From the sequence record NC_000866.4: a DNA stretch of 64,000 nt. One strand, 5' to 3'. The stretch's first letter is position 1. Every line of letters starts with the position of its first letter. The notes under the pieces were generated by a model that ran no database searches, was not told where the DNA came from, and was given only the letters and a program-made list of their open reading frames with translations. Of this stretch, positions 34,785 through 50,802 are shown piece after piece. The position numbers and the translations under genes were made by a program. The DNA is from Escherichia phage T4.

Positions 34785-35033
34785 TTACTTCAGTGTTACC
34801 ACAAAGTGACGAACTGCTTTTCGTGCAGCAGAAGCCAGAGGCTTAGCATATTTAAGTTCATCTTTTTCCTGAAGCTCAGCAGCTAATGCAGTTTGAGCAG
34901 GATTCAGATGTTTGAAATAACGCAGGATTTCAAGAGCTTCGGCTTCAACATCAATAGATGCGCCATAGTTTTCGTGACCATTATTCCATGCGTTTCGTTG
35001 CAGTTCAAGAGCGTGTTGTAATTGTTTAATCAT
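34785..35033 (-). CDS. rIII: Lysis inhibition accessory protein
   Basis: 82-aa ORF; T4 rIII length and position. Confidence 0.88.
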   Translation of the reverse strand: MIKQLQHALELQRNAWNNGHENYGASIDVEAEALEILRYFKHLNPAQTALAAELQEKDELKYAKPLASAARKAVRHFVVTLK

Positions 35034-36699: not shown

Positions 36700-37034
36700 T
36701 TCATAATCACCAGATAAGCAGATTTAGCAGTTTCAACACGATAAATTTCGTGACGAAGTTTAGTTATACTTTTAATAACAGAACTAATTATATTCTGCCC
36801 ATCTTTAAAGCGGTTTTTCTTATCAATAAAAACTGCGCCAGTCATCTTTTTGTGAAGCTCAACTGGATACTTCGTCACAATAATAGCATCATACACAGAA
36901 GGATGAATACTATTCACCAGAGTATCATTCATTAAAGTTATTCTAATGAACTGTGCTGTTTCAGAATCAAGCGCTCTATGATCGCCAGTATCATTTTCAA
37001 GACAATTATCAATTATATCAGTTAAATTCATCAT
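36696..37034 (-). CDS. cd.1: Hypothetical protein
   Basis: 112-aa ORF; name by synteny. Confidence 0.65.
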   Translation of the reverse strand: MMNLTDIIDNCLENDTGDHRALDSETAQFIRITLMNDTLVNSIHPSVYDAIIVTKYPVELHKKMTGAVFIDKKNRFKDGQNIISSVIKSITKLRHEIYRVETAKSAYLVIMK

Positions 37035-37261
37035 AGTACGCCATACACCCTTTGTGCTTCAACTAATCCATCAAAATCCAGTTTAAGATGCGATATTTGA
37101 TCGCCATCACCTGGATTCACAATTACTAATACTGAACGAGGAGTTTCGGTAATAACACGAACCGATGTTTCAGGAAATCGTTCAGAAACCTTATTTACTA
37201 ATTCCTGCGCAAATAGTTTAACTTTTTCTTGGAATTCCTTTAACAGTAATCGGTTTTTCAC
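37031..37261 (-). CDS. cd.2: Hypothetical protein
   Basis: 76-aa ORF; ORF-track start is GTG directly after a stop, so the true start is uncertain; early promoter upstream. Confidence 0.55.
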   Translation of the reverse strand: MKNRLLLKEFQEKVKLFAQELVNKVSERFPETSVRVITETPRSVLVIVNPGDGDQISHLKLDFDGLVEAQRVYGVL

Positions 37262-37812: not shown

Positions 37813-39131
<1,319 letters not shown>

Positions 39132-39135
<4 letters not shown>

Positions 39136-39431
39136 TTACATTTATCCTCTTTTAGCTCTTGACGATAATAACATATCATAGTTTTCTGGTCATGTACATA
39201 TCGTTTTACATCATTAAGCCAAATACGAAATTCCTGAGAATCTTCAAATGGCATACCGACCCAGGCTTTACCATCAATAACTTTAACTTGCCAAGATAGT
39301 TTAGCTTCATCATATGACTTTATTTGCACAGGCCAATTAGGATGAACTGTTTCTTTCTTTACTTCTAGAGGCTTTGTCGAACAACCAACTAGAAGACCAA
39401 TAGATAATATTACTGCTGATAGTTTAATCAT
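39132..39431 (-). CDS. pseT.2: Outer-membrane lipoprotein, o-spanin (Rz1 equivalent)
   Basis: 99 aa; signal peptide with lipobox LLVGC; overlaps the upstream i-spanin-like ORF by 4 nt. Confidence 0.8.
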
Positions 39432-39781
39432 TTAGAAAGGTCCTGGATGTCTTCTGCGAACTTGTTGAAGGAGTTGTTGATTTGTTTTTCAACCAATCCT
39501 GGCTTATGAGCCACCACATCCGCCTTCTTTGCATCTTTGCGCAGTTTTTCATTTTCACGCTCAATAGCAGCAATTGCCTCACGATTTTTATTATTCATCG
39601 CATCAATATAATTATACTGAATTCGCAAATTATTTAATGCTAAGGCGTTTTCATTGGCCGTTTTTGTAATTTCAGTAACTGATGTTTCTAATCTTTCTAC
39701 CTTATGTTTTAAAATAATAGATGTTCCGCCAAATGCTATTACAAGTAATAGCAATCCAGCTGTAAAATTACTTACATGCAT
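39428..39781 (-). CDS. pseT.3: Inner-membrane i-spanin (Rz equivalent)
   Basis: 117 aa; N-terminal transmembrane segment (LLLLVIAFGGTSIIL) followed by a charged helical region. Confidence 0.8.
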   Translation of the reverse strand: MHVSNFTAGLLLLVIAFGGTSIILKHKVERLETSVTEITKTANENALALNNLRIQYNYIDAMNNKNREAIAAIERENEKLRKDAKKADVVAHKPGLVEKQINNSFNKFAEDIQDLSK

Positions 39782-40278
39782 AAAGTTTTAATAACCTCTA
39801 CAATATCGTCTTGAGAAAGACCGTTAATTAAAATATGATGTTCAGCTGGAGATTTAGAAATTTTAAAGCATGCCTCAACATCTTCTGCCATATCCGATGC
39901 ACTACGATTTGGATTACTAATACCAAGGCGATGTTTTCCCGTCAAAGGATTAACGATGATATAGCATTTGCAGCTATTGATATGAACATTGGGTTGAGTC
40001 TGATTAATGAACACTTCACAATCATACTTAGCAAGTTGATTTTCTAAAAAGACTTTCATCTCTTCAACCGCATCAGGAAGCATATCACGGGCTTGCTCAA
40101 GACGACGATTTCGATATTCTTTAATGGTCGTTTTCCGCTTGACTTGCTTAGCTAAATCTTTCTTAAGACCAGTGATATATCCAACTCGACGATTTCCTTT
40201 GAATACAGAAATCCCATCTGTAGTATCACCGTATGCTTCAACGACCATTTCAGTAGTAATAAGTTGTAAATCCATCAT
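39772..40278 (-). CDS. alc: Alc, inhibitor of host transcription on cytosine-containing DNA
   Basis: 168-aa ORF (two consecutive ATG); lies between the spanin pair and rnlA as in T4. Confidence 0.85.
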   Translation of the reverse strand: MMDLQLITTEMVVEAYGDTTDGISVFKGNRRVGYITGLKKDLAKQVKRKTTIKEYRNRRLEQARDMLPDAVEEMKVFLENQLAKYDCEVFINQTQPNVHINSCKCYIIVNPLTGKHRLGISNPNRSASDMAEDVEACFKISKSPAEHHILINGLSQDDIVEVIKTLCM

Positions 40279-40306
40279 AAAGTCCTCATGTTATGTCAGT
40301 AAGACT

Positions 40307-40336
40307 ACTATAACACAACACGAGGGACTTGTAAAC
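40307..40336 (-). promoter_or_regulatory. Early sigma70-like promoter upstream of alc
   Basis: Minus strand GTTTACA - 17 nt - TATAGT, then leader with GAGGA RBS; second copy of the duplicated cassette. Confidence 0.6.
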
Positions 40337-40339
40337 AAC

Positions 40340-41927
<1,588 letters not shown>

Positions 41928-42457: not shown

Positions 42458-43055
42458 CGTATGTTCGATTGAGCTCGCTAATTCTCAACCCGTTCTCTTA
42501 TGAACTGCTGCATGTTACCATGCAGTCCAGACTATATCACAATCCCGGAGGGATTCTCCCCATTTCGAGTCGCTTGACCCTACGTCCGAAGACTAGTCGT
42601 TGAACCTTGTTTTGCAATTGTCGCCGTGCCATCGTTTATATGTTGATGGTGATAAATCTTTCTTATCACAATATGGACAATTCAATTGAATTCTATTTGG
42701 ATTTAATTTACATCTGTCATTATGTTTTAGATAAAATCCAGGACCTTTACCAATGTGACCACAGAAATCACATGTGATTTCTTTTTGTGCAGGATGGGTC
42801 CCGTTCTTAACCATTTCTAATGTTTTTGCTGATGTTCTTTTCTTATGTTCTTCCATCAGAATCTTTAGGTATAGGTCCGTTAGCATCTATCCAAATTTTT
42901 CTATAGTTCAATTGTGCATCCTCTTAAAAGTATAATCATATTTATATTATACTAATTAAAGGTGCAAGCAAAACCTTGGCTGCTAGTTTTCCATAAAGGA
43001 CTTTCCAGCAATTAAAGGAGTTTTCGATAAACGTTACCGTTTAAAGGCGCATTTT
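42458..43055 (-). mobile_element. Group I self-splicing intron in nrdB (598 nt)
   Basis: Interrupts nrdB; shares core blocks with the td intron (CATG.ACCATGCAG..CAGACTATATC and TTTCGAGTC.CTTGACCCTAC); exon 1 ends in U and the intron ends in G at the inferred junctions. Confidence 0.8.
42593..42886 (-). pseudogene. I-TevIII: Truncated intron-encoded endonuclease remnant (I-TevIII-like)
   Basis: 97-aa ORF inside the nrdB intron with Cys/His zinc-finger-like motifs (CDFCGH, CPYCDK) but no N-terminal catalytic domain. Confidence 0.7.
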
Positions 43056-50574: not shown

Positions 50575-50802
50575 TTATTGTTCAATCAGTCCCATGTAAA
50601 ATTCTGCGTCTTCAGAATCCATGCCATCACAATATTCATTAGCCATAAAGCGGGTGAGGTCTTCAAGAGGACCTTCAATAACGATTTGAATACTCCAAAA
50701 CTTAGAATCTTGCACGCTTGTGATACTAAGTTCAGGATAACGATTACGAATAATCTCTTCAATATATTCAAAATCAACGATGTCAATATCAACTTTAGCC
50801 AT
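50575..50802 (-). CDS. frd.3: Hypothetical protein
   Basis: 75-aa ORF; name by synteny. Confidence 0.65.

What the first reader, a model, noticed from the sequence alone, without database searches (positions are those of the whole stretch)
39132..39781. Overlapping spanin pair encoded far from the tail-fibre and lysis region
An ORF with an N-terminal transmembrane helix and charged periplasmic domain (i-spanin-like) overlaps by 4 nt an ORF with a signal peptide and lipobox LLVGC (o-spanin-like). They are embedded among RNA-repair genes.
Basis: partly seen in the sequence, partly recalled or inferred. Interest (0 to 1): 0.3.

Follow-up and report, generated by a model that had tools for sequence, protein, structure and literature searches.

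The report
Phage T4 spanin genes pseT.3/pseT.2

Summary
The window is bacteriophage T4. It is 99.9% identical to T4 records and matches NC_000866 positions 96001-160000 by coordinate offset. The two minus-strand ORFs are exactly as described. 39428..39781 encodes a 117-aa protein with one N-terminal transmembrane helix and a helical, charged remainder. 39132..39431 encodes a 99-aa protein with a lipoprotein signal (lipobox LVGC, Cys17). The two genes share the 4 nt ATGA. Their DNA is identical to T4 pseT.3 and pseT.2, the type example of "separated" two-component spanins.

The cloned pair complements a lambda Rz/Rz1 amber lysogen in 10 mM MgCl2, and PseT.2 Cys87 and Cys98 are essential (Kongari et al. 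2018, PMC6139136). A T4 transposon screen scores pseT.3 "essential" and pseT.2 "strong fitness defect", while flanking pseT and pseT.1 are dispensable.

My own checks agree. This is the only lipoprotein-signal ORF of 161 in the window, and it lies next to one of only two ORFs with an N-terminal TM helix. The gene order, the ATGA junction, the lipobox and both C-terminal cysteines are kept in six diverged Straboviridae.

Two minor corrections apply. The field calls this architecture "separated", not "overlapped". T4 has no lysis cassette, so the remote location is normal.

Verdict: already known; low interest.

The parts
39428..39781 (-). pseT.3, the i-spanin (117 aa): an N-terminal transmembrane helix followed by a helical periplasmic domain.
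   Evidence: ORF. DNA identical to T4T pseT.3. phrog_739 'Rz-like spanin' 1.3e-37. AF2 model has helix 4-92, a break at Pro94, then helix 94-116, mean pLDDT 80.6.
39710..39766 (-). Codons 6-24 of pseT.3, the predicted transmembrane helix FTAGLLLLVIAFGGTSIIL.
   Evidence: Highest 19-residue Kyte-Doolittle window, 2.24. One of only two such N-terminal segments among 161 ORFs in the window.
39428..39431 (-). ATGA junction: the pseT.2 start codon overlaps the pseT.3 stop codon by 4 nt.
   Evidence: Read directly from the sequence. The same 4-nt overlap is present in JS98, CC31, X20, PSTCR6, Assk and KP15.
39132..39431 (-). pseT.2, the o-spanin precursor (99 aa; 83 aa after cleavage before Cys17).
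   Evidence: ORF. DNA identical to T4T pseT.2. phrog_812 'Rz-like spanin' 3.5e-43. AF2 model has a signal helix 3-14, an unstructured linker, a beta hairpin 48-59 and a helix 62-89, mean pLDDT 76.7.
39381..39431 (-). Lipoprotein signal peptide of PseT.2 (residues 1-17). Lipobox LVGC lies at 39381-39392 and the lipidated Cys17 codon at 39381-39383. The next residue is Ser.
   Evidence: Regex and hydrophobicity check. Cys17 is invariant in 7 homologues, and the +2 residue is Ser or Ala, never Asp.
39138..39173 (-). Codons Cys87 (39171-39173) to Cys98 (39138-39140) of PseT.2, the two periplasmic cysteines.
   Evidence: Positions. Both are invariant in the 7-sequence alignment. [quoted passage not shown]
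40307..40335 (-). Sigma-70-like promoter match (TTTACA, 17 nt, TATAGT, with an upstream TG) between rnlA and alc. It is a candidate early promoter for alc-pseT.3-pseT.2-pseT.1-pseT. This is inferred, not shown.
   Evidence: Consensus scan; such matches are not enriched over shuffles. No TATAAATA late-promoter motif lies on the minus strand between 42939 and the spanin genes. Published omics class both genes as early RNA.

Best explanation
The two genes are bacteriophage T4 pseT.3 and pseT.2, a two-component spanin.

PseT.3 is anchored in the inner membrane by its N-terminal helix and extends a long alpha-helical domain into the periplasm. PseT.2 is exported, lipidated on Cys17, cleaved by signal peptidase II and delivered to the inner leaflet of the outer membrane. 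Its C-terminal domain (beta hairpin plus helix, with Cys87 and Cys98) meets the C-terminal part of PseT.3, so the complex bridges the periplasm through the peptidoglycan mesh.

The complex stays inert until holin T and endolysin E remove the peptidoglycan. It can then oligomerise and change shape, and it removes the outer-membrane barrier, most likely by fusing it with the inner membrane, which releases the progeny.

Shown by published experiments: the pair substitutes for lambda Rz/Rz1; both PseT.2 cysteines are required; disulfide-linked PseT.2 dimers form only when PseT.3 is present; insertions in either gene are strongly depleted in T4.

Inferred: topology, lipidation and outer-membrane sorting, from sequence rules. 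The membrane-fusion step itself is inferred by analogy with lambda.
For: - Identity: 99.9% over 1601 nt to 13 T4 records, with 495 phage records covering at least 80% of the query. There is no difference from T4T within 39132-39781.
- Annotation in T4-like records: 'Rz-like spanin', 'i-spanin'/'o-spanin', 'outer membrane lipoprotein Rz1'.
- PHROG lysis families: phrog_739 1.3e-37 and phrog_812 3.5e-43.
- Sequence anatomy: TM helix, lipobox LVGC with Cys17, Ser at +2, Cys87 and Cys98.
- AF2 models agree with the published secondary-structure picture (PMC6139136).
- Conservation: tblastn finds the o-spanin in 1240 phage records. In six diverged Straboviridae (35-70% identity for the o-spanin, 20-42% for the i-spanin) the following are all kept: gene order, ATGA overlap, lipobox Cys, both C-terminal Cys, and a K-P-x-L motif at the break between the i-spanin's two helices.
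- Experiments: complementation of lambda RzamRz1am and the Cys mutants (PMC6139136).
- HIDEN-SEQ supplement: pseT.3 had 5 of 28 TA sites hit ('Essential') and pseT.2 had 6 of 30 ('Strong fitness defect'). By contrast pseT had 68 of 70 and pseT.1 had 17 of 17 (both 'Non-essential').
Against: Nothing contradicts the spanin reading. The gaps are these:
- No detectable sequence relationship to lambda Rz or Rz1. There are no PF03245 or PF06085 hits. BLASTP gives E = 2.4 for the i-spanin and E = 0.071 for the o-spanin, the latter covering only the signal peptide.
- No solved structure or fold match.
- Lipidation, topology and membrane fusion have not been shown directly for the T4 proteins in anything I read.
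- The N-terminus of T4 PseT.3 has no Lys or Arg before the TM helix, so the positive-inside rule gives no support for its N-in orientation. All six homologues do have one.
- Both genes are classed as early RNA (protein early for PseT.2, middle for PseT.3). This is unlike the late spanin genes of lambda. It is compatible with the model, because the complex is harmless until the peptidoglycan is removed.
Confidence: 0.97

Rival explanations
1. The pair is an early-expressed envelope function such as superinfection exclusion or receptor masking (like T4 Imm/Sp or the T5 Llp lipoprotein), not a lysis function. On this view its spanin-like anatomy is coincidental.
For: Both genes are classed as early RNA in published T4 omics. 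They lie on the early/middle strand with no TATAAATA late-promoter motif upstream until 42939. A sigma-70-like promoter match lies upstream of alc. Small early membrane proteins and lipoproteins of phages often act in exclusion; this last point is general knowledge and was not tested here.
Against: The cloned pair restores lysis to a lambda spanin-null lysogen, and Cys mutants abolish that activity (PMC6139136). Exclusion genes are dispensable in single-phage lab growth, yet both genes are strongly depleted for insertions in T4. The two genes co-occur with a conserved coupling junction in every lineage examined, as expected of two subunits of one complex.
Confidence: 0.02
2. The genes work with the flanking RNA-repair enzymes (Pnk, Rnl1), for example by tethering tRNA repair to the membrane. 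Their conserved position in the rnlA-pseT block would then reflect shared function.
For: The order rnlA-(alc)-pseT.3-pseT.2-...-pseT is conserved in JS98, CC31, X20, PSTCR6 and KP15. The gene names derive from pseT.
Against: The names are positional only. pseT is non-essential on lab hosts whereas the two spanin genes are not, so the phenotypes are uncoupled. In Aeromonas phage Assk none of the five annotated upstream genes is named RNA ligase or alc; all are 'hypothetical protein'. A lipoprotein signal places PseT.2 outside the cytoplasm, away from tRNA. T4 genes are commonly arranged by expression timing rather than by pathway (general knowledge).
Confidence: 0.01

Closest known systems
Bacteriophage T4 PseT.3/PseT.2, the 'separated' two-component spanin (Summer et al. 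2007 J Mol Biol 373:1098, as cited in PMC6139136; Kongari et al. 2018, PMC6139136)
   Same: It is the same thing. The DNA is identical across both genes, with the same lengths (117 aa; 99-aa precursor, 83 aa mature) and the same Cys87/Cys98. The peptide epitopes used to raise the published antibodies (ERENEKLRKDAKKA and WLNDVKRYVHDQKT) are both present in the ORFs.
   Different: Nothing within the two genes. Nearby, the window differs from resequenced T4 strains by one base in alc and a 1-nt indel in cd.2.
Lambda Rz/Rz1, the 'embedded' two-component spanin
   Same: The functional plan is the same: a type II inner-membrane protein with a helical periplasmic domain, plus an outer-membrane lipoprotein. 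The two systems are functionally interchangeable (PMC6139136). Both need homotypic disulfide links.
   Different: - No detectable sequence homology.
- Rz1 lies wholly inside Rz in another reading frame, whereas the T4 genes are tandem and share only ATGA.
- Rz1 is short (60 aa), proline-rich and unstructured. PseT.2 has a predicted beta hairpin plus a long helix.
- Rz carries cysteines; PseT.3 has none, and both PseT.2 cysteines are essential.
- Lambda's spanin genes are late genes inside a lysis cassette. T4's are early-class and stand apart from t and e.
P2 LysB/LysC, the 'overlapped' two-component spanin
   Same: A two-component spanin with the i-spanin gene upstream of the o-spanin gene.
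   Different: In the overlapped class the o-spanin gene begins well inside the i-spanin gene (tens to more than 100 bp) and extends past it. The 4-nt ATGA here is only a start/stop coupling and is classed as separated.
T1 gp11, a unimolecular spanin
   Same: The same final step of lysis, and an outer-membrane lipoprotein signal.
   Different: T1 gp11 is a single polypeptide with an N-terminal lipobox and a C-terminal TM helix. Here the two anchors are on two separate proteins.

Membership tests
Two-component spanin (functional class) | The i-spanin is a small protein with a single N-terminal transmembrane helix and a mostly alpha-helical or coiled-coil periplasmic domain. | tested here: met
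   TM window at residues 6-24, KD 2.24. AF2 helices 4-92 and 94-116. All six homologues have an N-terminal hydrophobic segment. The N-in/C-out orientation was not tested.
Two-component spanin (functional class) | The o-spanin has a signal peptidase II signal with a lipobox and invariant Cys, and no Asp at +2 (outer-membrane sorting). | tested here: met
   K3, hydrophobic core, LVGC, Cys17, Ser18. Cys is invariant, and +2 is Ser or Ala in 7 of 7 sequences. Actual lipidation is not testable here.
Two-component spanin (functional class) | The two genes are adjacent on the same strand, with the i-spanin gene first. | tested here: met
   The same order and the ATGA junction occur in six other Straboviridae.
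Two-component spanin (functional class) | Periplasmic cysteine(s) are available for homotypic intermolecular disulfide bonds. | tested here: met
   PseT.2 Cys87 and Cys98 are present and invariant in the alignment. Their requirement is shown in PMC6139136.
Two-component spanin (functional class) | The pair is required for, or sufficient to restore, outer-membrane disruption at lysis (for example by complementing lambda RzamRz1am in Mg2+). | not testable with these tools
   Published as positive for exactly these genes (PMC6139136 Fig. 8b). T4 insertion mutants are strongly depleted (bioRxiv 10.1101/2025.11.20.689424, supplementary file 7).
Two-component spanin (functional class) | Physical i-spanin/o-spanin complex and fusion of inner and outer membranes. 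| not testable with these tools
   Indirect only. The PseT.2 disulfide dimer is seen only when PseT.3 is present. Spheroplast fusion has been shown for lambda Rz/Rz1, and I found no such report for T4.
T4 PseT.3 / PseT.2 sequence families (phrog_739 / phrog_812) | Significant full-length match to the family profiles. | tested here: met
   phrog_739 at 1.3e-37 over residues 1-117; phrog_812 at 3.5e-43 over residues 1-99. DNA identical to T4T.
Lambda Rz (Pfam PF03245 Phage_lysis) / Rz1 (PF06085) | Sequence match to the Pfam models. | tested here: not met
   No hit for either T4 protein at E <= 0.01. Lambda Rz and Rz1 themselves score 2.6e-54 and 2.9e-20. Pairwise BLASTP is not significant. The T4 pair works like Rz/Rz1 but is not a member of those sequence families.
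'Overlapped' spanin gene architecture (P2 LysB/LysC type) | The o-spanin reading frame starts well inside the i-spanin gene and extends beyond it. | tested here: not met
   The overlap is 4 nt (ATGA). The field classes T4 as 'separated' and treats even an 8-bp overlap as separated.

The most novel reading that the evidence does not exclude
T4-type spanins are made from early or middle transcripts, in a conserved block with alc and the RNA-repair genes, rather than as late genes. The envelope-spanning complex may therefore have a second role before lysis. Candidates are stabilising the envelope during lysis inhibition, or affecting superinfecting phage. My evidence shows only the timing class, the absence of a canonical late promoter and the conserved synteny. 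It does not show any second role.
Probability: 0.05. Interest if true: 0.4.

Novelty: already known. Interest (0 to 1): 0.05.

Why it matters
It matters little as a discovery. These are the textbook T4 spanins, first identified bioinformatically in 2007 and validated genetically by 2018.

The result is still useful as a calibration point. A reader working from raw sequence alone correctly recognised a spanin pair from a TM helix, a lipobox and the gene adjacency.

It also highlights annotation gaps. Many T4 and T4-like GenBank records still label these genes 'hypothetical protein'. At least one record (CC31) gives a truncated o-spanin start that removes the lipoprotein signal.

Tried and rejected
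- Sequence searches of PDB with both proteins found nothing below E = 0.17.
- A Foldseek search of PDB with the PseT.2 model gave no match with E <= 0.001 (best 0.87). No structural relative can be named.
- NCBIfam gave no hits. Pfam gave only sub-threshold hits of the helical i-spanin (Crescentin rod domain, DUF4446). I treat these as compositional, not as family membership.
- I looked for a T4 late promoter (TATAAATA) upstream of the pair. None lies on the minus strand between 42939 and the genes; there are only one-mismatch variants, which I do not trust.
- From the two-piece alignments I suspected that relatives carry an insertion between the two spanin genes. In AndreasVesalius the approximately 300-bp insertion (a putative homing endonuclease) lies between pseT and pseT.1, and the spanin junction is intact.

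Full report
**1. What is in the sequence**

The interval holds two tandem ORFs on the minus strand.

ORF 39428..39781 encodes 117 aa, beginning MHVSNFTAGLLLLVIAFGGTSIILKHKVERLE... Its most hydrophobic 19-residue window is residues 6-24 (mean Kyte-Doolittle 2.24). The rest is rich in charged residues (17 K+R, 15 D+E) and contains no cysteine.

ORF 39132..39431 encodes 99 aa, beginning MIKLSAVILSIGLLVGCSTKP... It has a basic residue (K3), a hydrophobic core, the lipobox LVGC with Cys17, and Ser at +2. Two further cysteines lie at positions 87 and 98.

The downstream ATG (39431-39429) and the upstream TGA (39430-39428) share the tetranucleotide ATGA, a 4-nt overlap. The downstream gene in turn overlaps the next ORF (38908..39135, pseT.1) by 4 nt.

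**2. More than chance?**

I scanned all 161 ORFs of at least 60 aa in the window with simple rules. Exactly one ORF has a lipoprotein signal (this one). Only two have a strongly hydrophobic N-terminal 19-mer, and one of those is the ORF immediately upstream. Thirty shuffled windows gave no lipoprotein-signal ORF. A TM-anchored protein directly followed by a lipoprotein is not a chance arrangement here.

**3. Identity of the locus**

Megablast of 38800-40400 finds 13 T4 records at 99.9% identity over the full 1601 nt, and 495 records that cover at least 80% of the query.

In phage T4T (HM137666) the ORFs are annotated pseT.2 and pseT.3. They are flanked by pseT.1 and pseT (polynucleotide kinase/phosphatase) on one side and by alc, rnlA (RNA ligase 1), denA and nrdB on the other.

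Base-by-base comparison shows no difference from T4T inside 39132-39781. The only nearby differences are one base in alc and a 1-nt indel in cd.2.

The gene coordinates in the supplement of PMC9697503 are pseT.2 135132..135431, pseT.3 135428..135781 and cd.2 133031..133261. They are exactly 96000 higher than the window coordinates. By inference from that offset, the window is the T4 reference genome NC_000866, positions 96001-160000.

**4. Family evidence**

PHROGs places the two proteins in lysis families annotated 'Rz-like spanin': phrog_739 at 1.3e-37 and phrog_812 at 3.5e-43, both full length.

Pfam and NCBIfam have no model for either protein.

Lambda Rz and Rz1 score strongly on PF03245 and PF06085. 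The T4 proteins do not hit these models. Pairwise BLASTP is insignificant apart from the signal peptide and lipobox.

The T4 pair therefore works like Rz/Rz1 but is not a detectable sequence homologue.

**5. Published experiments on exactly these genes**

Kongari et al. 2018 (PMC6139136) report the following:

- T4 PseT.3/PseT.2 is the paradigm of the 'separated' two-component spanin architecture.
- A plasmid carrying pseT.3-pseT.2 complements the lysis defect of a lambda RzamRz1am lysogen in 10 mM MgCl2.
- The C87S, C98S and double mutants of PseT.2 are lysis-defective.
- PseT.3 forms no disulfide dimer.
- A disulfide-linked PseT.2 dimer appears only when PseT.3 is present.

A 2025 preprint that maps T4 gene essentiality by transposon insertion (10.1101/2025.11.20.689424, supplementary file 7) gives these figures:

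| Gene | TA sites hit | Class |
|---|---|---|
| pseT.3 | 5 of 28 | Essential |
| pseT.2 | 6 of 30 | Strong fitness defect |
| pseT | 68 of 70 | Non-essential |
| pseT.1 | 17 of 17 | Non-essential |

The two genes thus matter in T4 itself, and their phenotype is separate from that of the RNA-repair genes around them.

**6. Conservation**

tblastn with the o-spanin finds 1240 phage records, in phages of Escherichia, Klebsiella, Shigella, Enterobacter, Aeromonas, Yersinia, Salmonella, Citrobacter, Proteus and others.

I fetched six diverged loci: JS98, CC31, Serratia X20, Providencia PSTCR6, Aeromonas Assk and Klebsiella KP15. All six share these features:

- an i-spanin-like ORF with an N-terminal hydrophobic segment;
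- the same ATGA junction, followed by an o-spanin-like ORF;
- a lipobox (LVGC, LAGC, MIGC, LTGC, LAAC or LVGC) with Cys at position 14-17.

In the alignments the lipid Cys and both C-terminal Cys are invariant in the o-spanin. A K-P-x-L motif (K93, P94, L96 in T4) is invariant in the i-spanin.

The order rnlA-(alc)-pseT.3-pseT.2-...-pseT holds in the five enterobacterial phages. KP15 lacks alc. In Assk none of the annotated upstream genes is named RNA ligase or alc.

**7. Structure predictions**

AlphaFold2 on these shallow alignments gives usable models.

- PseT.3: one long helix (4-92) covering the TM segment and the first periplasmic helix, a break at Pro94, then a second helix (94-116). 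Mean pLDDT is 80.6.
- PseT.2: a signal-peptide helix, an unstructured linker, a beta hairpin (48-59) and a long helix (62-89). Mean pLDDT is 76.7, rising to 90-95 in the hairpin and helix.

This largely agrees with the secondary-structure description in PMC6139136: two helices with a very short linker for PseT.3, and beta-alpha-beta for PseT.2. My PseT.2 model shows the hairpin and the helix but not the short C-terminal strand that paper describes.

No solved structure resembles either protein by sequence. For PseT.2, none resembles it by fold either.

**8. Expression**

The T4 late-promoter motif TATAAATA occurs 19 times in the window against 8.4 expected. None lies on the minus strand between 42939 and the spanin genes.

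A sigma-70-like match (TTTACA, 17 nt, TATAGT, with an upstream TG) sits between rnlA and alc at 40335-40307. It is only a consensus match.

The supplement of PMC9697503 classes pseT.2 as early RNA and early protein, and pseT.3 as early RNA and middle protein.

So the T4 spanins appear to be made well before lysis. This fits the accepted model, in which spanin complexes are held inactive by the peptidoglycan mesh until the endolysin removes it (PMC6139136). It contrasts with lambda, where Rz/Rz1 are late genes in the lysis cassette.

**9. Position relative to other lysis genes**

| Feature | Position | Distance from the spanin pair |
|---|---|---|
| Window end | T4T 160014, inside gene 38 | n/a |
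| Holin gene t | T4T 160235-160891, about 220 nt beyond the window | about 24 kb |
| Tail-fibre genes 34-38 | from window position about 54.8 kb | about 15 kb |
| rIII (lysis-inhibition accessory gene) | window about 34785-35033 | about 4 kb |

From general knowledge of T4, the endolysin gene e lies far outside the window.

Scattered lysis genes are the known T4 arrangement, so the remote position is not an anomaly.

**10. Verdict**

Both the observation and the interpretation are right, with two small corrections. The field's name for this architecture is 'separated'. The location is the known T4 arrangement.

The feature is already known and experimentally characterised, so interest is low.

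The only mildly open point is why T4-type spanins are early or middle genes in a conserved block with alc and the RNA-repair genes. I see no evidence for a second function and give that idea about 5%.

Noticed in passing
window 40168-40170 (minus strand, alc codon 37): The window has GGT (Gly) where T4T HM137666 has GAT (Asp). I checked the base only against T4T. The other 12 best T4 records show the same 99.9% identity, so they may share the T4T base. The window appears to be the composite reference NC_000866, so this is probably a reference-versus-resequenced-strain difference.
   Followed up: partly
window about 37238; ORF 37031..37261 (minus strand, cd.2): The window has one extra base relative to T4T, which changes the N-terminus of cd.2. 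In the window it is 76 aa with a GTG start (MKNRLLLKEFQ...). In T4T it is 79 aa with an ATG start (MLLSEKPITVKEFQ...). One of the two records probably has a sequencing or strain indel.
   Followed up: partly
L006 (Enterobacter phage CC31, GU323318) 2492-2794: The annotated pseT.2 starts at locus position 2579 and so lacks the signal peptide and lipobox. The full ORF with MKLLVATVLSIGLLAGC starts at 2492 and overlaps pseT.3 by ATGA, as in T4. The database start is likely wrong.
   Followed up: yes
L002 (Escherichia phage AndreasVesalius, MZ501050) 608-910; also the two-piece matches of the RB3-like records: A gene of about 300 bp annotated 'putative homing endonuclease' is inserted between pseT and pseT.1 in these T4 relatives. 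The spanin pair and its junction are untouched.
   Followed up: partly
L009 (Aeromonas phage Assk) 2112-2489: The i-spanin homologue ends in ...MDCLTLGECK, with two C-terminal cysteines. T4 PseT.3 has no cysteine. This suggests a different disulfide arrangement in that lineage.
   Followed up: no
L010 (Klebsiella phage KP15) 1027-2815: KP15 has no alc gene. rnlA is followed directly by pseT.3 (4-nt overlap) and pseT.2, so the spanin pair abuts the RNA ligase gene.
   Followed up: no
window, whole; TATAAATA sites listed: The T4 late-promoter motif TATAAATA occurs 19 times against 8.4 expected from shuffles. It is mostly on the plus strand in the first 16 kb (the structural-gene region). One site lies at 42939-42946 (minus strand), inside the nrdB intron upstream of I-TevIII.
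   Followed up: no
window 50586..50792 (minus strand): This 68-aa ORF ([32 protein letters not shown]...) is the only other ORF in the window with a strongly hydrophobic N-terminal segment. I did not check whether it is a real gene.
   Followed up: no
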